From Eledone cirrhosa (lineage: Eukaryota): 64,000 nt of DNA. The notes under the pieces are model-generated. The model was given only the letters and a program-made list of their open reading frames with translations. It was not told the DNA's origin and did no database searches. Location: assembly GCA_964016885.1 (NCBI GenBank), contig OZ024741.1, positions 58,900,001-58,964,000 on the forward strand, written 5' to 3'. The position numbers were made by a program, and so were the translations under genes. This document shows positions 1 to 46,816 of the stretch, piece by piece. Numbering within the stretch: position 1 is the stretch's first letter; every line of letters begins with the position of its first letter.

Positions 1-3000
1 GTGTCTTACCTTACAGGTGTGTATGTATATGACAAGACTAAGACTCTAATGCTACCTGTGTCTTACCTTACAGGTGTGTATGTATATGACAAGACTAAGA
101 CTCTAATGCTACTTGTGTCTTACCTTACAGGTGTGTATGTATATGACAAGACTAAGACTCTAATGCTACCTGTGTCTTACCTTACAGGTGTGTATGTATA
201 TGACAAGACTAAGACTCTAATGCTACCTGTGTCTTACCTTACAGGTGTGTATGTATATGACAAGACTAAGACTCTAATGCTACCTGTGTCTTACCTTACA
301 GGTGTGTATGTATATGACAAGACTAAGACTCTAATGCTACTTGTGTCTTACCTTACAGGTGTGTATGTATATGACAAGACTAAGACTCTAATGCTACCTG
401 TGTCTTACCTTACAGGTGTGTAGGTATATGACAAGACTAAGACTCTAATGCTACCTGTGTCTTACCTTACAGGTGTGTATGTATATGACAAGACTAAGAC
501 TCTAATGCTACCTGTGGCTTACCTTACAGGTGTGTATGTATATGACAAGACTAAGACTCTAATGCTACCTGTGTCTTACCTTACAGGTGTGTATGTATAT
601 GACAAGACTATGTCTCTAATGCTACCTGTGTCTTACCTTACAGGTGTGTATGTATATGACAAGACTGTGACTCTAATACTACCTGTGTCTTACCTTACAG
701 GTGTGTATGTATATGACAAGACTGTGACTCTAATGCTACCTGTGTCTTACCTTACAGGTGTGTATGTATATGACAAGACTAAGACTCTAATGCTACCTGT
801 GTCTTACCTTACAGGTGTGTATGTATATGACAAGACTAAGACTCTAATGCTACTTGTGTCTTACCTTACAGGTGTGTATGTATATGACAAGACTAAGACT
901 CTAATGCGACCTGTGTCTTACCTTACAGGTGTGTATGTATATGACAAGACTATGTCTCTAATGCTACCTGTGTCTTACCTTACAGGTGTGTATGTATATG
1001 ACAAGACTAAGTCTCTAATACTACCTGTGTCTTACCTTACAGGTGTGTATGTATATGACAAGACTGTGACTCTAATGCTACCTGTGTCTTACCTTACAGG
1101 TGTGTATGTATATGACAAGACTAAGACTCTAATGCTACCTGTGTCTTACCTTACAGGTGTGTATGTATATGACAAGACTAAGACTCTAATGCTACTTGTG
1201 TCTTACCTTACAGGTGTGTATGTATATGACAAGACTAAGACTCTAATGCTACCTGTGTCTTACCTTACAGGTGTGTATGTATATGACAAGACTATGTCTC
1301 TAATGCTACCTGTGTCTTACCTTACAGGTGTGTATGTATATGACAAGACTAAGTCTCTAATACTACCTGTGTCTTACCTTACAGGTGTGTATGTATATGA
1401 CAAGACTAAGACTCTAATGCTACCTGTGTCTTACCTTACAGGTGTGTATGTATATGACAAGACTAAGACTCTAATGCTACCTGTGTCTTACCTTACAGGT
1501 GTGTATGTATATGACAAGACTAAGACTCTAATGCTACCTGTGTCTTACCTTACAGGTGTGTATGTATATGAAAAGACTAAGACTCTAATGCTACCTGTGT
1601 CTTACCTTACAGGTGTGTATGTATATGACAAGACTATGTCTCTAATGCTACCTGTGTCTTACCTTACAGGTGTGTATATATATGACAAGACTAAGACTCT
1701 AATGCTACCTGTGTCTTACCTTACAGGTGTGTATGTATATGACAAGACTATGTCTCTAATGCTACCTGTGTCTTACCTTACAGGTGTGTATGTATATGAC
1801 AAGACTAAGTCTCTAATACTACCTGTGTCTTACCTTACAGGTGTGTATGTATATGACAAGACTAAGACTCTAATGCTACCTGTGTCTTACCTTACAGGTG
1901 TGTATGTATATGACAAGACTAAGACTCTAATGCTACCTGTGTCTTACCTTACAGGTGTGTATGTATATGACAAGACTATGTCTCTAATGCTACCTGTGTC
2001 TTACCTTACAGGTGTGTATATATATGACAAGACTAAGACTCTAATGCTACCTGTGTCTTACCTTACAGGTGTGTATGTATATGACAAGACTATGTCTCTA
2101 ATGCTACCTGTGTCTTACCTTACAGGTGTGTATGTATATGACAAGACTAAGTCTCTAATACTACCTGTGTCTTACCTTACAGGTGTGTATGTATATGACA
2201 AGACTAAGACTCTAATGCTACCTGTGTCTTACCTTACAGGTGTGTATGTATATGACAAGACTAAGACTCTAATGCTACCTGTGTCTTACCTTACAGGTGT
2301 GTATGTATATGACAAGACTAAGACTCTAATGCTACCTGTGTCTTACCTTACAGGTGTGTATGTATATGACAAGACTAAGACTCTAATGCTACCTGTGTCT
2401 TACCTTACAGGTGTGTATGTATATGACAAGACTAAGACTCTAATGCTACCTGTGTCTTACCTTACAGGTGTGTATATATATGACAAGACTAAGACTCTAA
2501 TGCTACCTGTGTCTTACCTTACAGGTGTGTATGTATATGACAAGACTAAGACTCTAATGCTACCTGTGTCTTACCTTACAGGTGTGTAGGTATATGACAA
2601 GACTAAGACTCTAATGCTACCTGTGTCTTACCTTACAGGTGTGTAGGTATATGACAAGACTAAGTCTCTAATGCTACCTGTGTCTTACCTTACAGGTGTG
2701 TATGTATATGACAAGACTAAGACTCTAATGCTACCTGTGTCTTACCTTACAGGTGTGTATGTATATGACAAGACTAAGACTCTAATGCTACTTGTGTCTT
2801 ACCTTACAGGTGTGTATGTATATGACAAGACTATGTCTCTAATGCTACCTGTGTCTTACCTTACAGGTGTGTATGTATATGACAAGACTAAGACTCTAAT
2901 GCTACCTGTGTCTTACCTTACAGGTGTGTATGTATATGACAAGACTAAGTCTCTAATGCTACCTGTGTCTTACCTTACAGGTGTGTATGTATATGACAAG

Positions 3001-6000
3001 ACTAAGACTCTAATGCTACCTGTGTCTTACCTTACAGGTCTGTATGTATATGACAAGACTAAGTCTCTAATGCTACCTGTGTCTTACCTTACAGGTGTGT
3101 ATGTATATGACAAGACTAAGACTCTAATGCTCTCTGTGTCTTATCTTACAGGTGTGTATGTATATGACAAGACTAAGACTCTAATGCTACCTGTGTCTTA
3201 CCTTACAGGTGTGTATGTATATGACAAGACTAAGACTCTAATGCTACCTGTGTCTTACCTTACAGGTGTGTATGTATATGACAAGACTAAGACTCTAATG
3301 CTACCTGTGTCTTACCTTACAGGTGTGTATGTATATGACAAGACTAAGACTCTAATGCTACCTGTGTCTTACCTTACAGGTGTGTATGTATATGACAACA
3401 CTAAGACTCTAATGCTACCTGTGTCTTACCTTACAGGTGTGTATGTATATGACAAGACTAAGACTCTAATGCTACCTGTGTCTTACCTTACAGGTGTGTA
3501 TGTATATGACAAGACTAAGACTCTAATGCTACTTGTGTCTTACCTTACAGGTGTGTATGTATATGACAAGACTAAGACTCTAATGCTACCTGTGTCTTAC
3601 CTTACAGGTGTGTATGTATATGACAAGACTATGTCTCTAATGCTACCTGTGTCTTACCTTACAGGTGTGTATGTATATGACAAGACTAAGTCTCTAATAC
3701 TACCTGTGTCTTACCTTACAGGTGTGTATGTATATGACAAGACTAAGACTCTAATGCTACCTGTGTCTTACCTTACAGGTGTGTATGTATATGACAAGAC
3801 TAAGACTCTAATGCTACCTGTGTCTTACCTTACAGGTGTGTATGTATATGACAAGACTAAGACTCTAATGCTACCTGTGTCTTACCTTACAGGTGTGTAT
3901 GTATATGACAAGACTAAGACTCTAATGCTACCTGTGTCTTACCTTACAGGTGTGTATGTATATGACAAGACTAAGACTCTAATGCTACCTGTGTCTTACC
4001 TTACAGGTGTGTATGTATATGACAAGACTAAGACTCTAATGCTACCTGTGTCTTACCTTACAGGTGTGTATGTATATAACAAGACTAAGTCTCTAATGCT
4101 ACCTGTGTCTTACCTTACAGGTGTGTATGTATATGACAAGAGTAAGACTCTAATACTACCTGTGTCTTACCTTACAGGTGTGTATGTATATGACAAGACT
4201 AAGTCTCTAATACTACCTGTGTCTTACCTTACAGGTGTGTAGGTATATGACAAGACTAAGTCTCTAATGCTACCTGTGTCTTACCTTACAGGTGTGTATG
4301 TATATGACAAGACTAAGACTCTAATACTACCTGTGTCTTACCTTACAGGTGTGTATGTATATGACAAGACTGTGACTCTAATACTACCTGTGTCTTACCT
4401 TACAGGTGTGTATGTATATGACAAGACTAAGACTCTAATGCTCTCTGTGTCTTACCTTACAGGTGTGTATGTATATGACAAGACTAAGACTCTAATGCTA
4501 CCTGTGTCTTACCTTACAGGTGTGTATGTATATGACAAGACTAAGACTCTAATGCTCTCTGTGTCTTACCTTACAGGTGTGTATGTATATGACAAGACTA
4601 AGACTCTAATGCTACCTGTGTCTTACCTTACAGGTGTCTATGTATATGACAAGACTAAGACTCTAATGCTACCTGTGTCTTACCTTACAGGTGTCTATGT
4701 ATATGACAAGACTAAGACTCTAATGCTACCTGTGTCTTACCTTACAGGTGTGTATGTATATGACAAGACTAAGACTCTAATGCTCTCTGTGTCTTACCTT
4801 ACAGGTGTGTATGTATATGACAAGACTAAGACTCTAATGCTACCTGTGTCTTACCTTACAGGTGTGTATGTATATGACAAGACTAAGACTCTAATGCTAC
4901 CTGTGTCTTACCTTACAGGTGTGTATGTATATGACAAGACTAAGACTCTAATGCTACCTGTGTCTTACCTTACAGGTGTGTATGTATATGACAAGACTAA
5001 GACTCTAATGCTACCTGTGTCTTACCTTACAGGTGTGTATGTATATGACAACACTAAGACTCTAATGCTACCTGTGTCTTACCTTACAGGTGTGTATGTA
5101 TATGACAACACTAAGACTCTAATGCTACCTGTGTCTTACCTTACAGGTGTGTATGTATATGACAACACTAAGACTCTAATGCTACCTGTGTCTTACCTTA
5201 CAGGTGTGTATGTATATGACAACACTAAGACTCTAATGCTACCTGTGTCTTACCTTACAGGTGTGTATGTATATGACAAGACTAAGACTCTAATGCTACC
5301 TGTGTCTTACCTTACAGGTGTGTATGTATATAACAAGACTAAGTCTCTAATGCTACCTGTGTCTTACCTTACAGGTGTGTATGTATATGACAAGAGTAAG
5401 ACTCTAATACTACCTGTGTCTTACCTTACAGGTGTGTATGTATATGACAAGACTAAGACTCTAATGCTCTCTCTGTCTTACCTTACAGGTGTGTATGTAT
5501 ATGACAAGACTAAGACTCTAATGCTACCTGTGTCTTACCTTACAGGTGTGTATGTATATAACAAGACTAAGTCTCTAATGCTACCTGTGTCTTATTTTAC
5601 AGGTGTGTATGTATATGACAAGACTAAGACTCTAATGCTACCTGTGTCTTACCTTACAGGTGTGTATGTATATGACAAGACTAAGTCTCTAATACTACCT
5701 GTGTCTTACCTTACAGGTGTGTAGGTATATGACAAGACTAAGTCTCTAATGCTACCTGTGTCTTACCTTACAGGTGTGTATGTATATGACAAGACTAAGA
5801 CTCTAATACTACCTGTGTCTTACCTTACAGGTGTGTATGTATATGACAAGACTGTGACTCTAATACTACCTGTGTCTTACCTTACAGGTGTGTATGTATA
5901 TGACAAGACTAAGACTCTAATGCTCTCTGTGTCTTACCTTACATGTGTGTATGTATATGACAAGACTAAGACTCTAATGCTACCTGTGTCTTACCTTACA

Positions 6001-7092
6001 GGTGTGTATGTATATGACAAGACTAAGACTCTAATGCTCTCTGTGTCTTACCTTACAGGTGTGTATGTATATGACAAGACTAAGACTCTAATGCTACCTG
6101 TGTCTTACCTTACAGGTGTCTATGTATATGACAAGACTAAGACTCTAATGCTACCTGTGTCTTACCTTACAGGTGTGTATGTATATGACAAGACTAAGAC
6201 TCTAATGCTACCTGTGTCTTACCTTACAGGTGTGTATGTATATGACAAGACTAAGACTCTAATGCTACCTGTGTCTTACCTTACAGGTGTGTATGTATAT
6301 GACAAGACTAAGACTCTAATGCTACCTGTGTCTTACCTTACAGGTGTGTATGTATATGACAAGACTGTGACTCTAATACTACCTGTGTCTTACCTTACAG
6401 GTGTGTATGTATATGACAAGACTGTGACTCTAATACTACCTGTGTCTTACCTTACAGGTGTGTATGTATATGACAAAACTGTGACTCTAATACTACCTGT
6501 GTCTTACCTTACAGGTGTGTATGTATATGACAAGACTGTGACTCTAATACTACCTGTGTCTTACCTTACAGGTGTGTATGTATATGACAAGACTGTGACT
6601 CTAATACTACCTGTGTCTTACCTTACAGGTGTGTATGTATATGACAAGACTGTGACTCTAATACTACCTGTGTCTTACCTTACAGGTGTGTATGTATATG
6701 ACAAGACTGTGACTCTAATACTACCTGTGTCTTACCTTACAGGTGTGTATGTATATGACAAGACTAAGACTCTAATGCTACCTGTGTCTTACCTTAGAGG
6801 TGTGTATGTATATGACAAGACTAAGACTCTAATGCTACTTGTGTCTTACCTTACAGGTGTGTATGTATATGACAAGACTGTGACTCTAATACTACCTGTG
6901 TCTTACCTTACAGGTGTGTATGTATATGACAAGACTAAGACTCTAATGCTACTTGTGTCTTACCTTACAGGTGTGTATGTATATGACAAGACTAAGACTC
7001 TAATGCTACCTGTGTCTTACCTTACAGGTGTGTATGTATATGACAAGACTAAGACTCTAATGCTACCTGTGTCTTACCTTACAGGTGTGTAT
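1..7092. repeat. 57-bp tandem minisatellite/satellite array (~124 units, continues past the left edge)
   Basis: Unit GTGTCTTACCTTACAGGTGTGTATGTATATGACAAGACTAAGACTCTAATGCTACCT repeats head-to-tail with a few recurrent substitutions and no visible indels. The 19-aa repeat ORFs result from the unit length being a multiple of 3. Confidence 0.99.
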
Positions 7093-7146
7093 GAATGTAT
7101 GTAGTGGGGGATTAGGCTATAATACTATCTGTAGTTTATCCTACAG

Positions 7147-18161: not shown

Positions 18162-19008
18162 ATCATCATCATCATCGTTTAACGTCCATCTTCCACGCGT
18201 GCATGGGTTTGGACGGGAGTTTCCCACTTGAGGCAAGATTTGTTGTCCTGCTCGTATAGGACTGTCTGGCGGGTTTTCTACGGCTGGATGCCCTTCCTAA
18301 CACCAACCACGTTTACAGTGTAGACTAGGAGGTTTTTACCGTGTTACCTACACGGCCACATTACAGCGTGGACTGTGTGTATTTTTGTCGTGACACCTAC
18401 ATGTTTGGCGGGTTTTCTACTGCTGGCTGCCCTTCCCAACACCAACCACGTTTATAGTGTGGACTGGGAGGTTTTTACCGTGTTACCTACACGGCCACAT
18501 TACAGCGTGGACTGTGTTTTTTTGTTGTGACACCTATACGACCTCATTTGATTCGGACTGGATGTTGTGGTACCAACATAACTTCACATTTAAGGGGGTG
18601 GTGTGGATGGGGTGGGGGTAGTGGGACGGGGGTGTATTTTGTTAGAGGTGCCTACTGACTGTAGTAGGTTTCACTTTGTACTTAGGTAAGGCGGGTCTTC
18701 TCTATTACTGTGTAGCGCCAAACATCTCGGTCCAGTGACATTGTCTTGGAGAAGTGTAAGTGTGTGAGGTCGGAATTTATCAAGTCATCCCAAGTTTTTC
18801 TGGGTCTGCCTACTCGGTGGCTACCGTCTATTTTTATCGCCCTGCACTTTTTTATACAGCTGTCGTCTTTCATGTGCATCACATGACCATACCAACGTAG
18901 TCTTCTCTTGAGTAAACAACATCTGATCCCTCTTAATCCTAATTTCTCCCTTAGTTCGTTTATGCTTTGCCGTTCACGTATATTAGTATTACACATCCAG
19001 CGGAGCAT
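18162..19008 (-). mobile_element. 5'-truncated RTE LINE (subfamily ending ...KTRLT)
   Basis: ORF 18682-19008 MLRWMC...RRLRWYGHVM...GRPRKTW; 3' UTR with a ~137-bp internal duplication; (GAT)n tail. Confidence 0.95.
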
Positions 19009-19126
19009 ATGTGTGTATATATATATATATATATATCTGTGTATATGCTCTCGGGAGCTTCCAACAGTAATGGTTGCATTCTTTAAGGGTATGTCAATAT
19101 TTATTTATAAAACTGCTCTATATTAT

Positions 19127-19189
19127 ATTTTATCTGATGAAAGCACACCATAATTTAACTTGGTGTCCTTGAAATATGTATAATGAAAT
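19127..19189 (+). ncRNA. Type I hammerhead ribozyme motif
   Basis: Stem I ATTTTAT/ATGAAAT (one G.U); core CTGATGA 19134-19140; stem II AAG-c-ACACCA/TGGTGT-c-CTT; GAAA 19171-19174; short near-palindromic stem III ATA-TG-TAT; predicted cleavage triplet AUA. Folded by hand only. Confidence 0.7.
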
Positions 19190-19280
19190 AAATATGGTTT
19201 TATAAATATAGTTTCCATTTGTTATTATATATATACATATATATATATATATATAGATATATATAGTTTTAATATAGATG

Positions 19281-19331
19281 AGATTCTACAGGACTAGAAC
19301 TGTTTCATTCATTAGAAATCATCAGGAATCT
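19281..19331 (-). ncRNA. Type I hammerhead ribozyme motif
   Basis: Minus strand reads AGATTC CTGATGA TTTC TAAT GAAT GAA ACAG TTCTAGTC CTGT A GAATCT: perfect 6-bp stem I, canonical core, 3-bp stem II on a U.U pair, 4-bp stem III, GUA triplet. Confidence 0.8.
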
Positions 19332-19829
19332 GGGTATCAAAAAATAAATAAATATGGTATTTATAGGTCTCTACAAGTGGTAGGAGAGGGTGGGGAGTGG
19401 GATGGGTGCAGGTCATTGGTTGATAGAAAAGGGAATTCATTAAAAGCTAATTCTACAAAGCTATAGTTTATTTTTATTTTTATTTATTTATGTTTTTAGA
19501 GTAACAAGGGCAGACAGAATTCTATAAACAGGTTCCGGATGGCATACCATTCCTTGTCATTAAGTTTCTCTTAAGCTAACAGATGTCTATAAAATCAGTG
19601 GGGGGTCAGTCATGGTCCATAGAATTAAAGAAAAGGGAGATTCTTTAAAAGCTAAAATCATTAAGGTTCTACTAAGTGACAAAGGTCTAGAGAATTCTGC
19701 AGACAGATTCAAAATACTGAGTGCATATTTTACTATTCTCTTCGAACTTCTCTTAAACTAATCAACTATATGCCAAAAATCAACAGACACATTCACAAAA
19801 AAACAAAAAAACACACATACTCACTCACA

Positions 19830-19932
19830 CACTTACGCGCAACCATAAACACACACACAAACACATATACACACATAAAAACACACACACATATATATAA
19901 AAATATATTCATGTACACACACATACATACAC

Positions 19933-19981
<49 letters not shown>

Positions 19982-20172
19982 AGTATATACACATATATAC
20001 ACACACACATATATATATACACATACACACACACATACACATACATACACACACACATATATACACAAATAAATACACTCACACGCATACATACAAACAC
20101 AAATATACATGTGTATACATATACACACAAATACATATAGACATATATACATACACATACACAGACACATAT

Positions 20173-20224
<52 letters not shown>

Positions 20225-20286
20225 ACACATACATACATACACATATACATATACACACACATACGTATACATATATATATACATAC

Positions 20287-20341
<55 letters not shown>

Positions 20342-20528
20342 CACACACATACATGCACACACACATATGTATATATATATATATATATAAAAAAAAAAAA
20401 AACCATACACACACATATATATACATATACACACACATACACACAAACACACACACACACATATATACACATATACATACATATATATACATCCATATAT
20501 ATAACCACATACATATATACATACATAC

Positions 20529-20573
<45 letters not shown>

Positions 20574-20616
20574 TAAACAAATATATATACATACAAACAC
20601 ACACACACACATACAT

Positions 20617-20677
<61 letters not shown>

Positions 20678-20721
20678 TACACACACATACACATACATAC
20701 ACATATATAAGGAAAAAGCAC

Positions 20722-20797
<76 letters not shown>

Positions 20798-20798
20798 T

Positions 20799-20855
<57 letters not shown>

Positions 20856-20941
20856 TATATATACACACATATATACACACACCCACACATATACATATAT
20901 ATATATATACACACACATACATACACACACATACACATATA

Positions 20942-20973
<32 letters not shown>

Positions 20974-21044
20974 CATACAAATATATACATATATATAAAA
21001 ATATACACACACACACACATATATACATATATATATATATACAC

Positions 21045-21117
<73 letters not shown>

Positions 21118-21361
21118 TATACACATATATATATATATATATATACGCATACAAACACACATACAAACATACATATACACATACATACATATAAACATAT
21201 ATATATACACACATATATATATACATGCATGTACATACATATATATACATATATATATATACACATATATATACATATATACAGATATACATACATATAT
21301 TTACACACACATATACATATTATATATACACATACACACACACATATATATACACATACAT

Positions 21362-21404
<43 letters not shown>

Positions 21405-21549
21405 CACACATATACATATATATATATATATATATACATACATACAAATACACACACATATATATACACGCACACACAGATATATACACACATATATATA
21501 CACACACACACACACATACACATACACATGCATATGTATAAATATCTAT

Positions 21550-21595
<46 letters not shown>

Positions 21596-21686
21596 ATACA
21601 TATACAAACATACACATACATACACAGACCTATACATAAATATACACATATATATACAGACATATAACGCATATATACACACACAA

Positions 21687-21759
<73 letters not shown>

Positions 21760-21825
21760 TATATACACACACGCGCATACACACACACACACACAAATAT
21801 ATATACACACTCTCTCTCTCACGCA

Positions 21826-21865
<40 letters not shown>

Positions 21866-21942
21866 CACACATATACACATATACACACATACATATACAC
21901 AGACATATATACATACACATATATACACATATATACACACAT

Positions 21943-21973
<31 letters not shown>

Positions 21974-21978
21974 CATAC

Positions 21979-22023
<45 letters not shown>

Positions 22024-22040
22024 AATATACATATATATAT
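19830..22040. repeat. ~2.2-kb mosaic (CA)/(TA) microsatellite field
   Basis: Read directly from the sequence. Confidence 0.98.
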
Positions 22041-23216
22041 ATCATCATCATCATCATCATGAACGTTTAACGTCCGTGTTCCACGCTTGCATGGGTTTGG
22101 ACGGGGGTAGTCCCACTTGAGGCAAGAGTGATTGTCTTGCTCGCATAGGACTGTCTGGCAGGTTTTCTACAGTTGGATGCCCTTCCTAACACCAACCACA
22201 TTTACAGTGTGGGTCTGGGAGGTTTTTACCGTGTTGCCTACACGGCCACATTACAGCGTGGACTGTGTGTTTTTTTGTCATGACACCTACACGATCTCAT
22301 TTGTTTCGGCCTCGATGGCGCGGCACCAACATAACTTTACATAGAACGGGGTGGTGTGGATGGGGTGGGGTGGTGGTGGTGGTGGGACGGGGTGTATTTT
22401 GTTAGAGATGACTACTGGCTGGAGTAGATTTTACTATATATTTAGGTAAGGCGGGTCTTCTCTGTTACTGAGTACCGCCAAAGGTCTCGGTCCAGTGACA
22501 TTGTCTTGGAGAGGTGTAAGTGTGTGATGTCGGAGTTTATCAGCTCGTCCCAGGTTTTTCTAGGTCTGCCTATTCCGTGACTACCGTCTATCTTTATTGC
22601 CCTGCACTTTGTTATACAGCTATCGACTTTCATGCGCATCACGTGTCCATACCAACGTAGCCTTCTCTCGAGTAAACAACATCTGATCCCTCTTATCTCT
22701 AATTTTTTCCTTAGTTCGTTTATGCTTTGCCGTTCACGTATATTACTGTTACACATCCAGCGGAGCATGCAAGCTTCGTTCCTCTCTAGTCTGGTTATCC
22801 TCTGCACACAATGCCCAGGTCTCACTGCCATGCAGCATTGCTGTTCGTATGCAGGCATCGTACAACCTGCCTTTCATTTTTAGGGAGAACCCTTTAGCAG
22901 CTAATAGTGGTATAAGCTCTCTGAACTTTTTCCAACCAGTTCTGACTCTAGCTACAGTACTTTCAGAGCACCCTCCCCCACTGCTGATTTTATCGCCCAG
23001 GTAACGGAAGCTGTCCACTATTTCTATAGAACCCTCTGCGCAATTGAAAGAGCTAGTATTTTGTGGGCACTTGCTGCTACTTATTGCACCAGAACACCGG
23101 CCACATGTAAAATCTATGTTCTTAGTTAGCTTACCTGTGATCCCACTACATCTTTTATGCACCCATACTTTGCATTTAGGACATAAAATGGAGTTTCTAC
23201 CTACGCCTTTTCTACA
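22041..23216 (-). mobile_element. 5'-truncated RTE LINE (KTRLT subfamily) with a frameshift near 22795
   Basis: [23 protein letters not shown]...VDSFRYLGD...MLHGSETW...RLRWYGHVMRM; (GAT)n tail; nearly identical to 36534-37730. Confidence 0.95.
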
Positions 23217-23291
23217 TATATATATATATATATACAAATACACACACACACATATATACATATATATATATATATACACACCTGCCCACAC

Positions 23292-23345
<54 letters not shown>

Positions 23346-23365
23346 GCACACACATACATACATAA

Positions 23366-23400
<35 letters not shown>

Positions 23401-23411
23401 CATATACATAC

Positions 23412-23468
<57 letters not shown>

Positions 23469-23665
23469 TACATATATACATATATATACACATACACATA
23501 CATATACATACACACACACATACATAAACATACATACATACATACACATACATACATACATACACATATATACACATATATATATATATATATATACATA
23601 TATATACACATATATACATACATATACATACATAAATATACACACATAAAACACATATACACACA

Positions 23666-23745
<80 letters not shown>

Positions 23746-23780
23746 TACATATACACACATTCAAACAAATATATACACAT
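23217..23780. repeat. Mosaic (CA)/(TA) microsatellite
   Basis: Read directly from the sequence. Confidence 0.95.
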
Positions 23781-23961
23781 ACAAATAAACAGGTACTCAA
23801 TAAATATACGCATATACGCAGGCACATAAAGACACCTCTACAGGCATAAAATGTAGATACGAAAGAGGTACTCACATAACCATAGTGGCCGTATTTCAGG
23901 TTGAGGAGGGGTGGGGGTAGGGTGGGGAGGAGGTATAGGGGCCAATAGGGGGAGGTCGTTT

Positions 23962-25297
23962 TTAGCCATCGGGCTTTAACACTGGCTTAAAGTGTTTGAA
24001 AGTTGCAAAGTTCTTGTGCATGCAGTTCGGGCAGTGTTCAGAGAGTTTGTTCAGTAGCGGGCCCTTGGCGAATAAAATTTCGTAGCTCTCTGAAATACAA
24101 AGGTCGCAGCCCTTGTGTCCTCCGTTGTAAGAGCGCGCTTTCTGGAGTATTTTCCAATTAAGCGTGAAGGGGGTGGAGTTCCTTTTGAGGTCCCAAACGT
24201 AGGAGGCGAGTGTTGTCTGATTTGATTTATCCGGTCTTCTGAAGGAGTGGGTATGGGCATACCAACGGGTCTTAAAGTTGTTGGAGGTCATGCCGATGTA
24301 AGTTTTTTTGCAATCCTCGGTGCCTGAGATGACATCGCATTTGTATACGATGTCATTTGTGAGGCATTTGTTTTCAAGTGGGCATGCTTCCTTATTTAGG
24401 CAATTACATAGAGCCCCAGTCCGGGGATTGGTTTCGGAGGTGGTTGGCTTATTTAGTTTAGAATTATGGTTGGCTATATTCCTAGCTAGGTTAGGTGTGG
24501 TGGAGTAAGACAGTCTTATAGTGTTCTTATTAAAGATGGTGTAGTACCTATGTTGTATGGGGAAGTGTAATTTCAGTAAAGTGAAGAAAATCCTAGCTAT
24601 CGGAGTAGATACCTCTCTATTGAAGGGGGGGTTGTACCAGCTAATCTGCCTATGTCTATTCCTCCTCTGCAATCTTGCGGTGGTTTCTAGGTAAGTTATC
24701 TTATCTTTAAATCCGCTACGGGCTAGGGCGTCATTGTAGTAGGAGGCAGATGCATTAAAAATATCTTTGTTTGCGGAGAGGCCAGATATTCTAATAGAGA
24801 CGCTTTTTACTAGGTTATCAGTGATGTTTTGTGGGTGGTTTGAATTAACATTAATATATTTAAGGGACTCGTTAGGTTTGTGGTACGGGTAATAGAGGGA
24901 AGTATCTAGGTCGAGAGTGACATCTAAGAAGTTGGCCCTAGTCATATTAGAATCTATAGTTATACTAAATCCTAGATTAGAGAAGAAAGAGCTTAAGTTT
25001 TTCCGAAACCCATCGGTGGTTCTGGGGCTAACCTTATGCAGGGCGAAGAGGCCGTCGTCTCGGTATAAACCTCCCGTTAGGCCGGTAAAGAGGTTCTTCA
25101 GGTTATGTAGGATGTCCAGGCCCACAAGGTCGCTAATTTCAGCCGAGTCACTCGCCCCCATGCTAACGTCAAATGGGGTCTGAGATTTCTTGTTGATCCA
25201 GTAAGATCCATCGTGGTATAGAAAGGTCTTACGAGCGTGGAGGATAATAACTTGCTCAGCATCGGTAATGGTGGTAAAATTCCTGGCAAAGTACACA
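23962..25297 (-). CDS. 5'-truncated Penelope-like element ORF: RT C-terminal part + Cys linker + GIY-YIG endonuclease, uninterrupted
   Basis: [20 protein letters not shown] (RT catalytic), NFLDVTL, HP, CNC-x5-CPL-x3-C linker, IVYKC...[24 protein letters not shown]. Homology to the second PLE stops near 25297, so the first ~44 codons of the tracked ORF appear unrelated. Confidence 0.92.
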
Positions 25298-25749: not shown

Positions 25750-26079
25750 TGGAGGCACATGGCTTAGTGGTTAGAGCATTGGCCTTGCAATCGAAAGGTT
25801 GTGAGTTCAATTCTAAACCGGGTGATGTGTTGTTTCCTTGAGCAAGACACTTTATTTCACATTGCTCCAGTTTACTCAGCTGTAGAAATGAGATGATAGG
25901 GACCACTGCAAAGTGGTCGTGGAGGTGCCACGGCAAAAAAGCACCCAGCACTCACTGTAAATGAGGTTGGTGTTAGGAAGGGCATCCAGCTGTAGAAATC
26001 AAGCCAGAATCAGTTCCCATCCCACCCTTGCAAGCAGGGAAAAAGTGGACGTAAAATGAAATGAAAATGATGAAATGAT
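25750..26079 (+). mobile_element. Full-length tRNA-derived SINE with RTE tail
   Basis: Same A box, B box, core and tail as 16152-16502. Confidence 0.92.
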
Positions 26080-33085: not shown

Positions 33086-35180
33086 CTATCCGTTAGGGTA
33101 TAACGTGGGGCTGTAATACAGGAAAGTTTTGTGCAATTTATGTTTACAAGCCGAAATTGCCTCAGATTTTTTGTTTAAGATGTGGTCTGTGGCGTAGAGT
33201 ATTTCCAGGGCCTCAGCGGTCACATGGTCTTTTATTTCCGTTATACGATCTAGCCCTAGCTAGGATGTCCCAGTGTAACTTATATTGGGTGTGGTTGTCT
33301 TTTAGACTCCAGATATAAGCTGAAAGTGACGTCATGTTCCTTCTTAGAGGGTAACGAAAAGAATGGGTATGCGTGTAAAGACGCTGCTTGAATCTATTGG
33401 CGGTTAACCCTATGTAGGCCCTACGGGACGTGGGTGTTACAACCTTACATTTGTAGACAATGTTACTAGAGAGGCATTTCCCGGATAGGGGGCAATCAAC
33501 CCGATTCCTACAATTACAGTTAGTACTAACTACAGTGTTGCACGTGTTCCTACGGCTAGGTAGTTTAGCTAAATTTGAAGCTGTGATGTTATGTGCAAGG
33601 TTAGGAGTCGTAGAGTAAGAAATTTTAATAGTATTTCTATTAAAATTTTACTATATTTATGTGTAGGGGGAAAATGCTTCGTAATAAGGGAAAGAAAGAT
33701 CTTAGCTAATGGTGTGGCCACCTCCATATTATATGGTGGGTTATACCAACAAATGCGACAGGATCTATTTCTTCTAGGTCTATTATCGTACTCTGTATAT
33801 GCTACCTTATTGACAAATCCACTTCGAGCAAGAGCTTCATTGTAATAAGTGGAATGGTCGTTGAAAATACGCTCGTTGGTGGAAAGACGGGAAAGCCTCA
33901 ACGAAACGTTTCTTACCAGGTTCTTGGTTATGCTGGCAGGATGGTTGGAATGCTTACTTATGTAATTAAGCGTATCATTCGGCTTTCTATACGGGTAATA
34001 CAACCCATTCAATAAATTGAGGGTAACGTCAAGGTAATTAACGACCGAGAGATTGGCCTCAATCTGTATAGAGAGGGTGAAGCCTTTAAAGAAGGCTGTG
34101 AGTTCTTTTCTGAACCTGTCGCAAGCACGAGGTCCGCACTTAGTCATGGTCAAAAGACCATCGTCACGGTACAAACCCCCGCCCGCGTTGGGGAATTCGT
34201 CCTTGATAGAGAAAAGAAGGAAAAGGCCGATAAGATCAGTAACCTCCGTAAAATCACTGGCGCCCATACTCACGTCGAATGGGGTACTATTGGATTTTTT
34301 AATCCAAATAGAGTCACCGACTTTCGGGCATTGAGGATGACATCAACTTCGAAATCCTTAACCACTGTGAGTGTTTTAGCGAAATTGATAGCTCTAAGGA
34401 GAAGTGGTAAAGTGATGGAGGAGTAGTAATTGTTGATGTCGAATTGGATAAAACGGCAATGTTCCTTGTTATATATGCCGTTGAACCAATCAATCACCGC
34501 AAAAGAATTGTTCCACAGTGCGAGAGGGGCCAAACTTCTAATTTCAGGTATAATTCTATCAAGAATCGTTTTACTAAGTCTACCTAAATCGAACTTCGTA
34601 AGGTTAATAAGCCGAATAGAGGAGTTGTTCGGAAAATTGGATTTGTGATCCTTCAGGGTAAAGTGGGGAGAAATAGGGTCCAGAGGTTCGGTCCTGTCCA
34701 GGATGTTGAGATCAGATGTGATTTTAAACCAAGCATCGTTGATTTCATTGATGACGCACCGATTAGTTTTACGGTAATCCTTAGTTACAGCATTATGTAG
34801 TAGTTGATGGTAAGTACTGCGCGCCACTGGATATAGGTTGCCAGTTTTGTCGGAATGGACGTGCACGGCGTTAGAATCCTTAATAGAACGAATTCTATTC
34901 TTCAGGTCTTGCTGGAAGCAATTGCTCCTATTCCGAAATTTGATACTCCGAATGAGTTCCAAGACATCATTTTCTAAGGGTAGCAATGCTGGGTTACACG
35001 GGGGTTATTATAGGTTTTAAATCCAAATTTATCCTGTTTGTTGTCTGCTTTTCGCGGGTTATCGAAATAAAAGGCACGCCAACGCAACCTTTTAATGAAC
35101 GCGTCTGTTTTCTGTATCAGGAGTTTTAGGTATGTTTTCCTGCTTGGAACGGGTATGTTCTTTGTAGAAATATTCAGATG
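33086..35180 (-). pseudogene. Frameshifted PLE ORF (N-terminal domain, RT, GIY-YIG)
   Basis: LNISTKNIPVP...[69 protein letters not shown]...YIGLT..FKQR, LNKKSE..CKH, stop at 33086-33088. Several frameshifts, a deletion over the CxxC, and no in-frame ATG seen. Confidence 0.92.
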
Positions 35181-36533: not shown

Positions 36534-38024
36534 ATCATCATCATCATCATCAACGTTTAACGTCCGTGTTCCACGCTTGCATGGGTTTGGACGGGGGTAG
36601 TCCCACTTGAGGCAAGAGTGATTGTCTTGCTCGCATAGGACTGTCTGGCAGGTTTTCTACAGTTGGATGCCCTTCCTAACACCAACCACATTTACAGTGT
36701 GGGTCTGGGAGGTTTTTACCGTGTTGCCTACACGGCCACATTACAGCGTGGACTGTGTGTTTTTTTGTCGTGACACCTACACGATCTCATTTGTTTCGGC
36801 CTACACGATCTCATTTGTTTCGGCCTGGATGGCGCGGCACCAACATAACTTTACATAGAACGGGGTGGTGTGGATGGGGTGGGGGTGGGGGTGGTGGGAC
36901 GGGGTGTATTTTGTTAGAGATGCCTACTGGCTGGAGTAGGTTTTACTATATATATTTAGGTAAGGCGGGTCTTCTCTGTTACTGAGTACCGCCAAAGGTC
37001 TCGGTCCAGTGACATTGTCTTGGAGAGGTGTAAGTGTGTGATGTCGGAGTTTATCAGCTCGTCCCAGGTTTTTCTAGGTCTGCCTATTCCGTGACTACCG
37101 TCTATCTTTATTGCCCTGCACTTTGTTATACAGCTATCGACTTTCATGCACATCACGTGTCCATACCAACGTAGCCTTCTCTCGAGTAAACAACATCTGA
37201 TCCCTCTTATCTCTAATTTTTCCTTAGTTTGTTTCTGCTTTGCCGTTCACGTATATTACTGTTACACATCCAGCGGAGCATGCAAGCTTCGTTCCTCTCT
37301 AGTCTGCGTATATCCTCTGCACACAATGCCCAGGTCTCACTGCCATGCAACATTGCTGTTCGTATGCAGGCATCGTACAACCTGCCTTTCATTTTTAGGG
37401 AAAACCCTTTAGCAGCTAATAGTGGTATAAGCTCTCTGAACTTTTTCCAACCAGTTCTGACTCTAGCTACAGTACTTTCAGAGCACCCTCCCCCACTGCT
37501 GATTTTATCGCCCAGGTAACGGAAGCTGTCCACTATTTCTATAGAACCCTCTGCGCAATTGAAAGAGCTAGTATTTTGTGGGCACTTGCTGCTACTTATT
37601 GCACCAGAACACCGGCCACATGTAAAATCTATGTTCTTAGTTAGCTTACCTGTGATCCCACTACATCTTTTATGCACTCATACTTTGCATTTAGGACATA
37701 AAATGGAGTTTCTACCTACGCCTTTCCTACACACCGAGCACCACCATTTCCCAGAAGGGACCGCCGCCTTGTTTTCTTTCCTACAAACTAGAACTTTGGT
37801 CTTAGCCAGGTTAATTTTAAGTCCTTTTGACTCTAGGCCGTGCTTCCATGTTTGGAATTTCTTCTCTAGCTCGGCCATTGATTCCGCTATGAGTGTCAGG
37901 TCGTCTGCGTATAGGAGTTCCCATGGGCAGCCTGTCTTGAACTCCTCTGTTATAGCCTGAAGGGCAATAATAAATAGTAGGGGGCTGAGAACAGAGCCCT
38001 GATGGACGCCAACTTTTACGCTAA
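36534..38024 (-). mobile_element. 5'-truncated RTE LINE (KTRLT subfamily), disrupted
   Basis: GVHQGSVLSPLLF, LYADDL, PHD-like Cys motif with a Trp>stop at 37678, frameshift near 37220, 24-bp tandem duplication at 36777-36824, (GAT)n tail. Confidence 0.95.
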
Positions 38025-38148
38025 GTATATATTTGTATAAATGGGACAAAAAGACAGGCCTAAAATGCCACTAGAAATAGCAGTCAATACGGTCATCTTA
38101 TCAGCTCAACGTTAATTAGGAGCAGCATTATTAATTATATATATATAT

Positions 38149-41290: not shown

Positions 41291-43094
41291 TCATCATCAT
41301 CATCATCATCACCGTTTTACGTCTGTTCTTCCATGCTAGCATGGGTTAGACGGCTTGTCCTGTTGTGGGCAGTGTCTGGTCGGCTGACCATGCCTTGCTC
41401 ATACAGGAACTGATTTTGGCTTGATTTCTACAGCTGGATGCCCTTCCTAACACCAACCTTATTTACAGTGAGTGCTGGGTGCTTTTTTCCGTGGTGCCTA
41501 CATGTCCACTTTACAGTGTGGGCTTTTTTGTTGTGGCACCTCCACAACCACTTTGCAGTGGGAGAGTGTGGGGGCATATTGTCTATATGCTTCAGCTTGT
41601 ACCCATGGGAGGTCGGGTACTCTGTATTACTGCGTGACGCCAGAGGTCACGGTCGTGTGTCATCGCCTTTGAGAGGTGTAATTGAGTATGGTCGGCTTTT
41701 ATCACCTCATCCCAGGTCTTCTTGGGTCTCCCCACTCCGCGGTTTCCATTGACTTCTAGTGCTCTGCACCTTTTTATGCAGCTGTCATCCTTCATACGCA
41801 TCACATGTCCATACCAATGCAACCGCCTCTCCTGCACACAGCATTTGATTCCTCTTATGCTCAGTCTCTCTCTCAATTCATTTATGCTTTGTCGTTCGCG
41901 TATATTACTATTACACATCCATCGGAGCATGCAGGCTTTGTTTCTTTGTAATCTACGTAAGTCTTCCACCTTCAGCGCCCAGGTCTCACTACCATGTAAT
42001 ATTGCTGTTCGGATACACGCATCATACAGTCTGCCTTTCATTTTGAGGGAGAAGCCTTTTGCAGCTAGCAGTGGCAGTAGTTCCCTGAACTTCTTCCATC
42101 CCGTTCCTACCCTAGTTATTGTACTTTCTGAACACCCACCTCCGCTGCTAATTCGGTCACCTAGGTAGCAGAAGCTGTCTACTGTTTCTACAGAGCCCTC
42201 CCAGAGATTGGTGGTACTTGTTTCCTGTGGCTGTTTGCTGCTTGCTGTCCCAGCACAGCTGTTGCATGTGAAGCCTACATTCTTAATTAAGCTTCCTGAA
42301 ATCCCACTACATCTCTTGTGTACCCATTGTTTGCATTTGGGGCAGAGAATGGAGTTCCTACCTACACCTTTCCTACATACTGAGCAAGGCCATTTCCCTG
42401 AGGGGATCTGGGTTCTGTTTTCTCGTCTACTTACAAGGACCTTAGTCTTTGTCATGTTGACTTTGAGACCCTTTCTTTCTAGTCTCTGCTTCCAGGTTTG
42501 GAATTTCTTCTCTAGTTCTACCATAGATTCAGCTATAAGTGCGAGGTCATCAGCATACAGGAGTTCCCATGGGCATCTGGTCTTAAACTCCTCCATTATT
42601 GCCTGCAGGACTATGATGAACAGGAGAGGGCTAAGAACAGAGCCCTGGTGGACACCAACCTGTACGCTAAATTACTCGCTATACTCATTGCTAATCCTAA
42701 CTTTGCTGACTGCTCCCCTATACATGGCTTGTACAGCTTTCACAAGCCATTCATCTACTCCTAGTTTTCTAAGAGCCCACCAGATTACAGCACGTGGAAC
42801 TCTGTCAAAGGCTTTCTCGAGATCGACGAATGCCAGGTAGAGTGGCTTACTTTTAGCTAGGTACTTTTCCTGTAACTGCCTCACAAGGAAGAGGGCATCA
42901 GTGGTGCCTCTTCCTGGTACAAACCCAAATTGCATCTCATCTAGTTTCACCCGGTCCCTAATCAACTGTGCTATAACTCTTTCTGTTACTTTCATGACCT
43001 GGTCCATCAGCTTTATACCTCTATAGTTTCCTCTATCTAGTGCATCACCTTTACCTTTGTAGCAGTTGACAATGATGCTACTGCACCAATCTTT
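41291..43094 (-). mobile_element. 5'-truncated RTE LINE, inverted close relative of 45019-46816, with one in-frame stop (GAA>TAA at 42672)
   Basis: ORFs 42672-43007 and 41592-42596 are in the same frame and nearly identical to the C-terminal part of ORF 44035-46518; (GAT)n tail at 41291. Confidence 0.96.
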
Positions 43095-43132
43095 ATAGCT
43101 TCAGTAATATATATATATATATGTATATATAA

Positions 43133-43521
43133 TGGAGGCACATGGCTTAATGGTTAGAGCATTGGGCTTGCAATCGAAAGGTTGTGAGTTCAATTCTCAG
43201 ACCGGGTGATGTGTTGTTTCCTTGAGCAAGACACTTTATTTCACATTGCTCCAGTTTACTCAGCTGTAGAAATGAGATGATAGGACTGGGGTCCCTATCA
43301 TTCCACTGCAAAGTGGTCGTGGAGGTGCCACGGCAAAAAAAGCACCTAGCCCACACTGTAAAGTGGACGTGTAGGTGCCATGGAAAAAAAGCACCCAGCA
43401 CTCACTGTAAATGAGGTTGGTGTTAGGAAGGGCATCCAGCTGTAGAAATCAAGCCAGAATCAGTTCCCATCCCACCCTTGCAAGCAGGGAAAAGTGGACA
43501 TAAAATGATGATGATGATGAT
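43133..43521 (+). mobile_element. Full-length tRNA-derived SINE with RTE tail (one extra UTR repeat unit)
   Basis: A box TGGCTTAATGG, B box GTTCAATTC, core, RTE UTR repeats and (GAT)n. Confidence 0.92.
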
Positions 43522-43669
43522 ATATATATTTATATAAATAAACGTGTATCTGGTTTAAAATAGGCATACCATATGCCTGCATGTTGTAATAACTGTGTGC
43601 ATCTGGTTTAGAATAGATAAATCATATTCATTCATGTCATAATAACCACATATGTCTGCTGTAGCATGT

Positions 43670-43943
43670 CTGTCCAGAGTCATGAGGCTTATCAGGCCAG
43701 TGCTTAAACCTGTTTCTGTGGCGTGAAGTGACTGAGAGTACAACACTTCCCCCTGGACAGGATGCCAGTCCATCATAAGGTTAACTCCCCAGCTATTGCT
43801 GGTACTCATTTCCAGCTGAGTTTGCTGAAGCAATAGGAAAGTATTTTGCTGAAGAATGCTACATACATCCTAGTCCAGGAATCGAACACACAACATTATG
43901 ATTTTTTAGTTCAACACCCTTACCACTAGGCCATGCTTCTCCA
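43670..43943 (-). mobile_element. tRNA-derived SINE of a different family
   Basis: Head TGGAGAAGCATGGCCTAGTGGTAAGG, B box GTTCGATTCC, body ATGGACTGGCATCCTGTCCAGGGG. Confidence 0.75.
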
Positions 43944-44075
43944 CTCTGGTTTTGAATAGGTAAACTGTATCTCTGCGTGTCTAAAGAAGTGACTAAAAGG
44001 GTTGTTGTTAAAAAGGGCATCTGGCTATTAGACATTGCCTCAACCTCTGTTGGCATGGAAACATCAACATAAAAA

Positions 44076-44131
<56 letters not shown>

Positions 44132-44151
44132 TCATCATCATCTATATATAT

Positions 44152-46518: not shown

Positions 46519-46816
46519 AGCATATAAACAATATGCCCCCCCCCCACCGCAAGGTGGTCGTGGAGGTGCCACGGCAAAAAAGCACCCAGCCCACACTGTA
46601 AAGTGGACGTGTAGGCGCCACGAAAAAGCACCCAGCACTCACTGTAAATGAGGTTGGTGTTAGGAAGGGCATCCAGCTGTAGAAATCAAGCCAGATCAGT
46701 TCCTGTATGAGCAAGGCATGGTCAGCCGACCAGACACTGCCCACAACAGGACAACCCGTCTAACCCATGCTAGCGTGGAAGAACGGACGTAAAACGGTGA
46801 TGATGATGATGATGAT
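44152..46816 (+). mobile_element. RTE-clade non-LTR retrotransposon, 5'-truncated, with 3' UTR and (GAT)n tail
   Basis: Starts abruptly after a (TA)n tract within the end of the AP-endonuclease region; 3' UTR 46519-46797; (GAT)n tail to 46816. Confidence 0.97.

What the first reader, a model, noticed from the sequence alone, without database searches (positions are those of the whole stretch)
19101..19331. Two convergent hammerhead ribozyme motifs ~90 bp apart with no ORF nearby
Seen: a + strand HHR (19127-19189) and a - strand HHR (19281-19331) with unrelated stems, separated by a TA run. The first is bracketed by a short inverted repeat TATTTATAAAAC/GTTTTATAAATA. Established: type I HHRs occur in PLE pseudo-LTRs and in non-coding retrozymes. 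Inference: solo pLTRs or small non-autonomous ribozyme retroelements of two families targeting the same TA tract; 19281-~19770 may be one such non-coding element. If active, either strand's transcript would be cut here.
Basis: partly seen in the sequence, partly recalled or inferred. Interest (0 to 1): 0.72.

Follow-up and report, generated by a model that had tools for sequence, protein, structure and literature searches.

The report
Two Penelope retroelement ends sharing TA-repeat
Both predicted self-cutting RNA motifs are in the sequence, but they are the tail ends of two abundant families of a known kind of protein-coding jumping gene that likely landed independently in the same TA repeat, and one of them carries about 2.8 kb of microsatellite of its own.

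Summary
Both type I hammerhead motifs sit at the stated coordinates. They are not stand-alone non-coding elements. Each is the 3' end (pLTR) of a different protein-coding Penelope-like element (PLE) family with Hydra-clade motifs, and each motif has about 3,000 exact copies in the genome. The minus-strand motif ends one 6-kb copy (19265-25292) whose RT/GIY-YIG ORF lies 4.6 kb away, across a microsatellite 3'UTR. The plus-strand motif is a ~178-nt 5'-truncated end whose family ORF is seen elsewhere. The same convergent pair occurs 52 times; same-direction neighbours occur 33 times; about 9 each are expected. That fits a shared (TA)n target, not a system. Close opposite-strand PLE hammerheads are in print (PMC4209133), and the scan found this before on other DNA (e1-10311802). 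The one unusual feature: family B carries a 1.3-3 kb TA/CA microsatellite that is homologous between copies, doubles the element's length and hosts later insertions. Cleavage is untested. Ordinary, with a modest side observation.

The parts
19051..19228 (+). Family A PLE: 5'-truncated 3' end (solo pLTR), ending at the proximal of the family's two 3' ends
   Evidence: 93-100% identity to the 40 best-scored genomic copies; parent ORF linkage in L053, L058, L068, L071
19126..19190 (+). Hammerhead A, type I: core 19134-19140 and 19171-19174, predicted cut after 19182; self-complementary stem III suggests dimer action
   Evidence: 3,015 exact 52-nt copies
19102..19208 (+).
   Evidence: predicted fold, z -3.03
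19229..19264 (.). Shared (TA)n target tract
   Evidence: sequence; family ends abut TA in most copies
19281..19331 (-). Hammerhead B, type I, U.U at the base of stem II, predicted cut after 19287
   Evidence: 3,034 exact 51-nt copies
19265..25292 (-). Family B PLE copy, 5'-truncated inside the RT region, ending at the proximal 3' end
   Evidence: co-linear with L041, L042, L044, L045, L048, L049
19265..19796 (-). Unique distal 3'UTR of family B with the hammerhead
   Evidence: 97-98% identity to the 40 best-scored copies
19797..23809 (-). Microsatellite part of the family B 3'UTR: 2,839 nt without the nested LINE, 38 runs of (TA)5 or more
   Evidence: landmark words shared in order with other copies
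22042..23215 (-). Later nested LINE 3' fragment (RTE-like, label recalled) inside the B microsatellite
   Evidence: ORF pieces at 22442-22873; absent at this place in other B copies
23962..25290 (-). Family B ORF remnant, 442 codons: RT (YRDD), thumb, CxCX5C linker, C-terminal GIY-YIG
   Evidence: 99% identical to the intact ORF in L070; Pfam GIY-YIG E=0.0015, below cutoff
18162..19008 (-). Flanking LINE 3' fragment of the same family as the nested one (context only)

Best explanation
The two motifs are the hammerhead-bearing 3' ends of two different protein-coding Penelope-like retrotransposon families, likely of the Hydra clade, which likely inserted independently into one TA repeat. Shown: family B here is one 6-kb copy with an RT/GIY-YIG ORF remnant, a microsatellite 3'UTR and the hammerhead; family A here is a 178-nt end whose full-length relatives (3.9-4.1 kb) carry an ORF; both families end at TA repeats at one of two fixed points. 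Inferred: the element's endonuclease nicks (TA)n; reverse transcription starts at one of two sites just downstream of the hammerhead, runs through it and usually stops early; the hammerhead therefore lies 20-50 nt from the TA junction in every copy, and a second insertion into the same tract often faces the first. Predicted, untested: the hammerheads cut multimeric element RNA, A probably only as a dimer. At this locus they are most likely passengers.
For: ORF linkage in 6 of 10 extended B loci. Both anchors flank a microsatellite spacer in 21 of 22 further loci picked by anchor position. Intact 713-codon ORFs between two hammerheads in L067 and L070. For A: hammerhead, tail, then ORF start in L058; ORF end, 1.35-kb UTR, then hammerhead in L053; full units in L068 and L058/L071. 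Hydra motifs RWR, DKT, CxCX5C, CxxC and CxH/CxxH in B and A against section 11 of PMC8557442. Two 3' ends about 70 nt (B) and 90 nt (A) apart match the PLE 'tail'. 52 convergent and 33 same-direction A-B neighbours against about 9 expected each. PMC4209133 reports opposite-strand hammerheads 100-700 bp apart as truncated PLEs. In B-like subfamilies loop II varies while stem II is kept, and stem I shows two-sided changes (12 cells, 1 of 500 shuffles).
Against: 4 of 10 extended B loci showed no B ORF in the 10 kb fetched. No tree with published Hydra proteins was built, so the clade rests on motifs read by eye. B has RWR rather than RWK and two cysteines eight residues apart before YIG. Both units are longer than the '<3 kb' typical of Hydra. 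The hammerhead fold of B is not its minimum-energy fold (z +0.44) and stem III of A does not form as a monomer. The A-like alignment gave no two-sided change (0 of 9 pairs). Neither motif has the G10.1-C11.1 pair. One stem I pair of B is unpaired in 9 of 16 rows. Convergent pairs outnumber pairs that are only same-direction 52 to 21; I explain this by inverted-pair insertions, which is inference.
Confidence: 0.93

Rival explanations
1. The short family A unit is copied as a defined non-coding element of its own (a SINE-like or monomeric retrozyme RNA starting near 19051), using the family's enzyme in trans.
For: 12 of 32 A copies from loci not picked for this length stop 79-90 nt upstream of the core; the window copy stops at 83. 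Short copies far outnumber ORF-bearing ones among fetched loci.
Against: The sequence is co-linear with the pLTR of ORF-coding copies at 94-99% identity. A fixed 5' end is also expected if reverse transcription starts in the upstream pLTR of the full transcript and runs to its start, or stalls at a structure. No regular tandem A array was seen in the loci fetched.
Confidence: 0.12
2. The convergent pair is a selected or co-mobilised cassette that cuts transcripts from either strand.
For: 52 convergent A-B pairs, about 5.7 times uniform expectation; both cores are intact here.
Against: Same-direction neighbours are also enriched (33). The 10 pairs inspected have different spacers, ends, B subfamilies and flanks. 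Only 52 of 7,136 A words are so paired. The copies are young (97-99% identical), so intact cores need no selection.
Confidence: 0.03
3. The motifs are chance matches in AT-rich repeat DNA.
For: No Rfam hit; weak predicted fold for B.
Against: 0 of 100 shuffles reach two cores; both sit at the pLTR position expected for PLEs; stem II kept while loop II varies.
Confidence: 0.01

Closest known systems
Hydra clade of C-terminal-endonuclease PLEs, including Hydra-1_Obim (Craig et al. 2021, PMC8557442; passages, section 11, supplement parts 1-2 and search hits seen)
   Same: Single RT + C-terminal GIY-YIG ORF, DKT, RW[K/R], CxCX5C linker, canonical type I hammerhead near the 3' end, (TA)n targets, U.U at the base of stem II as in many listed Hydra hammerheads, partial tandems and inverted 5' copies.
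   Different: Both hammerheads differ in sequence from the listed Hydra-1_Obim one. Units are 5.0-6.0 kb (B) and 3.9-4.1 kb (A) against 1.1-3.0 kb for the listed consensuses. B has a kilobase-scale microsatellite 3'UTR. Tails are 70-90 nt against 30-40 nt.
PLE minimal/type I hammerheads (Cervera and de la Pena 2014, PMC4209133; passages seen)
   Same: Hammerheads in pLTRs, mostly as single truncated ends, sometimes two within 100-700 bp on opposite strands; palindromic stem III suggesting dimers.
   Different: Here the two opposite motifs come from different families and face each other; G10.1-C11.1 is absent.
Non-LTR retrozymes (Li et al. 2026, bioRxiv 10.64898/2026.07.22.740005; first fifth and passages seen, supplements closed)
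   Same: Type I hammerhead, PLE-derived; family B has produced a 12-unit non-coding tandem array elsewhere in the genome.
   Different: The two window copies are not tandem repeats, and one is joined to its ORF.
Microsatellite seeding by LINE 3' ends in squamates (Pasquesi et al. 2018, PMC6050309; passages seen)
   Same: A retroelement spreads microsatellite DNA as cargo.
   Different: There a 3' tail of CR1-L3/Rex LINEs; here an internal 1.3-3 kb compound tract in a PLE 3'UTR, made of the motif the element itself targets.

Membership tests
Type I hammerhead ribozyme | CUGANGA / GAAA / UH core in a three-way junction, open stem I | tested here: met
   both motifs
Type I hammerhead ribozyme | Stems kept under sequence change | tested here: inconclusive
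   B: two-sided changes in stem I, stem II kept (related sequences inflate this test, core fixed by the search pattern). A: none in 9 predicted pairs.
Type I hammerhead ribozyme | Self-cleavage at the predicted site | not testable with these tools
   needs an in vitro assay
EN+ Penelope-like element | Single ORF with RT and GIY-YIG | tested here: met
   intact 713-codon ORF in L067 and L070; Pfam GIY-YIG E=2e-4 to 1.5e-3, below cutoff, and no RVT_1 hit; A seen only as frameshifted pieces, 40-42% identical to B
EN+ Penelope-like element | pLTR/partial tandems, inverted 5' copies, optional tail | tested here: met
Hydra clade | C-terminal endonuclease, DKT in place of DKG | tested here: met
   SDKTKN in B, SDKTNN in A
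Hydra clade | RWK motif | tested here: inconclusive
   RWR in both families: a conservative variant
Hydra clade | CxCX5C linker; CxxC and CxH near the endonuclease end | tested here: met
   [16 protein letters not shown] in B; CNCRNKSNC, CDLC, CYRH/CCRH in A
Hydra clade | No CCHH motif in the GIY-YIG core | tested here: inconclusive
   no CxxC before YIG/YVG in either; A has one cysteine there, B has two eight residues apart
Hydra clade | Canonical hammerhead and (TA)n insertion | tested here: met
Hydra clade | Phylogenetic placement; no IFD, no CxC motif | not tested
   published reference proteins were only read in the supplement, not aligned
Non-LTR retrozyme | Two or more tandem non-coding units, each with a hammerhead | tested here: not met
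   single units in the window; met only by the B-derived array in L061-L062
Non-LTR retrozyme | Circular RNA | not testable with these tools
   no raw RNA reads available

The most novel reading that the evidence does not exclude
Family B manufactures its own landing pads. Each long copy delivers about 20-45 new (TA)n runs inside its 3'UTR, the motif that it and sister families insert into. This gives a self-seeding loop that builds nested PLE clusters, adds microsatellite to the genome, and spawns retrozyme arrays when the tail's TA joins a TA run in the element's own UTR. Cargo homology, a B insertion inside a B microsatellite (L049) and a 12-unit array are seen; the feedback and its scale are inferred. 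About 600-900 copies suggest only 1.5-2.5 Mb for this family.
Probability: 0.4. Interest if true: 0.45.

Novelty: new member of a known kind. Interest (0 to 1): 0.22.

Why it matters
The finding as posed is ordinary: it is the expected footprint of TA-targeting PLEs, and it warns that short hammerhead islands in this genome look ORF-less only because microsatellite and nested repeats hide the link. The side result matters modestly. A young PLE family (copies 97-99% alike, intact ORFs) carries its own target microsatellite and has produced a retrozyme-like array, so it is a convenient system to test how PLEs choose TA, where they start reverse transcription, whether the hammerhead is needed, and how retrozymes arise.

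Tried and rejected
Rfam at gathering and at E<=10 gave no hammerhead hit; the listed miRNA-like hits are microsatellite artefacts. The inverted repeat as element termini: rejected, copies extend past both arms and it folds as stem I. Cofolding gave small dimer gains (A -48.4 vs -45.4; B -26.2 vs -18.4 kcal/mol) but not a clear stem-III-swapped hammerhead, so it is not used. RNAalifold on 22 A-like rows found no two-sided change. One ORF-side counting word matched only the window because it held a private change; a conserved word gave 635. Expression: no RNA holder listed; two contig runs were laid and say nothing on expression or cleavage. The protein search gave 1,403 relatives, best 120 at 38-54% identity, none named. 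Earlier-finding look-ups by sequence and by relatives were empty. Paper searches showed no description of a microsatellite-cargo 3'UTR in a Hydra PLE; the library is partial, Repbase/Dfam were not searched, and bioRxiv supplements are closed, so this is weak. The O. vulgaris repeat paper (PMC13282606, passages) has no ribozyme mention.

Full report
Observation. A descriptor scan of both strands of the window found two type I hammerheads and no others: plus 19126-19190 (cut predicted after 19182) and minus 19331-19281 (after 19287). None of 100 block-wise dinucleotide shuffles reached two cores. Rfam missed both. Motif B does not fold as a hammerhead at minimum energy (z +0.44).

Copy number. 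The genome is 3.0 Gb; I call it octopus-like from recall and from earlier notes, not from a test. Exact matches: 3,015 for a 52-nt word of A and 3,034 for a 51-nt word of B. Looser patterns that include sister subfamilies give 17,451 and 24,025. The 40 best-scored copies of each are 92-100% identical.

Family B is a coding element. [quoted passage not shown] In 6 of 10 extended B loci the same ORF, the stretch 23810-23902, a spacer and the hammerhead end lie in the same order; 4 showed no B ORF in the 10 kb fetched. L067 and L070 hold intact 713-codon ORFs between two hammerheads, and the window remnant is 99% identical to L070. Unit length is 5.0-6.0 kb in L066, L067 and L070. The sequence after the hammerhead continues through a 70-nt tail into the ATG of the next unit. 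So 19265-25292 is one 5'-truncated copy, later interrupted by a LINE fragment at 22042-23215.

Family A is the end of another coding element. In L058 the hammerhead is followed by a 90-nt tail and an ORF start; in L053 the end of that ORF is followed by a 1.35-kb UTR and the hammerhead. Full units of 3.9-4.1 kb occur in L068 and L058/L071; the A ORFs seen are frameshifted. A and B proteins are 40-42% identical. The window copy, 19051-19228, is a solo end.

Clade. Section 11 of PMC8557442 defines Hydra PLEs by a C-terminal endonuclease, RWK, DKT, CxCX5C, no CCHH, CxxC/CxH, canonical hammerheads and (TA)n targets. Both families show DKT, RWR, CxCX5C and the terminal cysteine motifs. No tree was built. 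Their hammerheads differ from the published Hydra-1_Obim one, and the U.U pair at the base of stem II in B recurs in many listed Hydra hammerheads. Listed consensuses are 1.1-3.0 kb, so both families are long.

Ends and mechanism. Among fetched copies, A ended at the proximal site in 34, the distal site in 22, read through in 2 and was unclear in 4 of 62 rows; B gave 23, 32 and 10 of 65 (overlapping loci may not be fully de-duplicated, and the loci were not a random sample). Two ends match the PLE 'tail', which in an anole PLE corresponds to two internal reverse-transcription starts; there hammerhead mutants did not affect insertion in vitro (PMC11167929, passages). Inserted copies here keep the sequence 3' of the cut site, so the template was uncut or re-joined RNA (inference). 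Both window copies end at the proximal site against one 36-nt TA tract. 5' ends cluster: 12 of 32 A copies stop 79-90 nt upstream of the core (window: 83), and 15 of 33 B-like copies within 8 nt, about 4 of them diverged subfamilies where the stop may be only loss of similarity. This may mark transcript starts or RT stalls; it is unexplained.

The convergent layout. A 16-nt A word followed within 60-260 nt by a facing 16-nt B word occurs 52 times, this site included; the same-direction layout 33 times, 12 of them second arms of the same inverted B pairs (coordinates compared by eye). With 7,136 and 37,887 words about 9 are expected per orientation. Both orientations are enriched, as a shared target predicts. 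The 10 pairs inspected differ in spacer, ends and B subfamily. PMC4209133 already reports opposite-strand hammerheads 100-700 bp apart as truncated PLEs and low in vitro activity (passages).

Structure support. In 16 distinct B-like rows 87.5% of cells pair, with 12 two-sided changes in stem I (1 of 500 shuffles), and stem II is kept while loop II varies. The core was fixed by the search pattern and relatedness inflates the test. The A-like alignment gave no two-sided change. Stem III of A is self-complementary over 8 nt with G.U pairs, as expected for dimer action. Cleavage is untested.

The unusual part. The B spacer is 2,839 nt in the window, 89% purine-pyrimidine alternating, with 38 runs of (TA)5 or more. 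It shares 155-490 of 797 rare landmark words, in order (rho 0.89-1.0), with six spacers from five loci; six control tracts share 0-13. In 21 of 22 further loci picked by anchor position the spacer was 1.3-5.2 kb; all 21 shared 24-443 landmarks, 16 of them over 100, against 0-15 in five controls. Controls were few and shorter. So the microsatellite travels with the element. Anchor counts of 922 and 635 suggest 1.5-2.5 Mb in all, a small part of the genome. It receives insertions: the LINE here, a B inverted pair in L049, and hammerhead-like cores in 5 of the 21 spacers. L061-L062 hold 12 tandem non-coding units of 1.03-1.11 kb, each part of the microsatellite, the distal UTR, hammerhead and tail, attached to an ORF-bearing copy; this fits the retrozyme definition in bioRxiv 10.64898/2026.07.22.740005. 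Microsatellite seeding by retroelements is known from snake LINEs (PMC6050309, passages). Searches showed no such cargo described for Hydra PLEs, within a partial library.

Verdict. Real motifs, known kind of element, ordinary layout. New members of the Hydra-type PLEs; interest 0.22, resting mostly on the microsatellite cargo.

Noticed in passing
G000:C1:83679684-83692184 (L061-L062): Twelve tandem non-coding units of 1.03-1.11 kb derived from the family B 3'UTR, each with the hammerhead, joined through TA and attached to an ORF-bearing copy: a retrozyme-like array born from a PLE.
   Followed up: partly
L049:2702-2834: A short inverted pair of family B ends inserted inside the microsatellite 3'UTR of another B copy.
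   Followed up: partly
window 19051; L067 and L070 5' ends: Preferred 5' ends: about 85 nt upstream of the core in A and within about 8 nt in B, including two full-length B copies. Transcript start or RT stall; unexplained.
   Followed up: partly
window 19001-19050: GAGCATAT...ATATGCTC inverted repeat around a TA run at the 5' junction of the A copy; possibly a fold-back at insertion, as short inversions occur at other A 5' junctions.
   Followed up: no
window 33213-35004 (-): Frameshifted pieces of a third Hydra-type PLE (DKT, YRDD, CxCX5C), similar to pieces in L046.
   Followed up: no
window 41570-46540: Inverted pair of LINE copies, 95-96% complementary; ORF 44032-46518 has RVT_1 with an inserted PHD finger. 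Fragments of a related family lie at 18162-19008, 22042-23215 and 37213-38070.
   Followed up: no
window 1-7100: 57-bp tandem array of about 123 units, 97-99% alike.
   Followed up: no
window 43143-43200 and about 25750-25830: tRNA-like heads, probably of a SINE family.
   Followed up: no
L006, L018, L024, L041, L051, L052, L054, L055, L061, L063, L064, L069: Many further, unrelated type I hammerhead families turned up in the fetched loci, several with long stem II.
   Followed up: no
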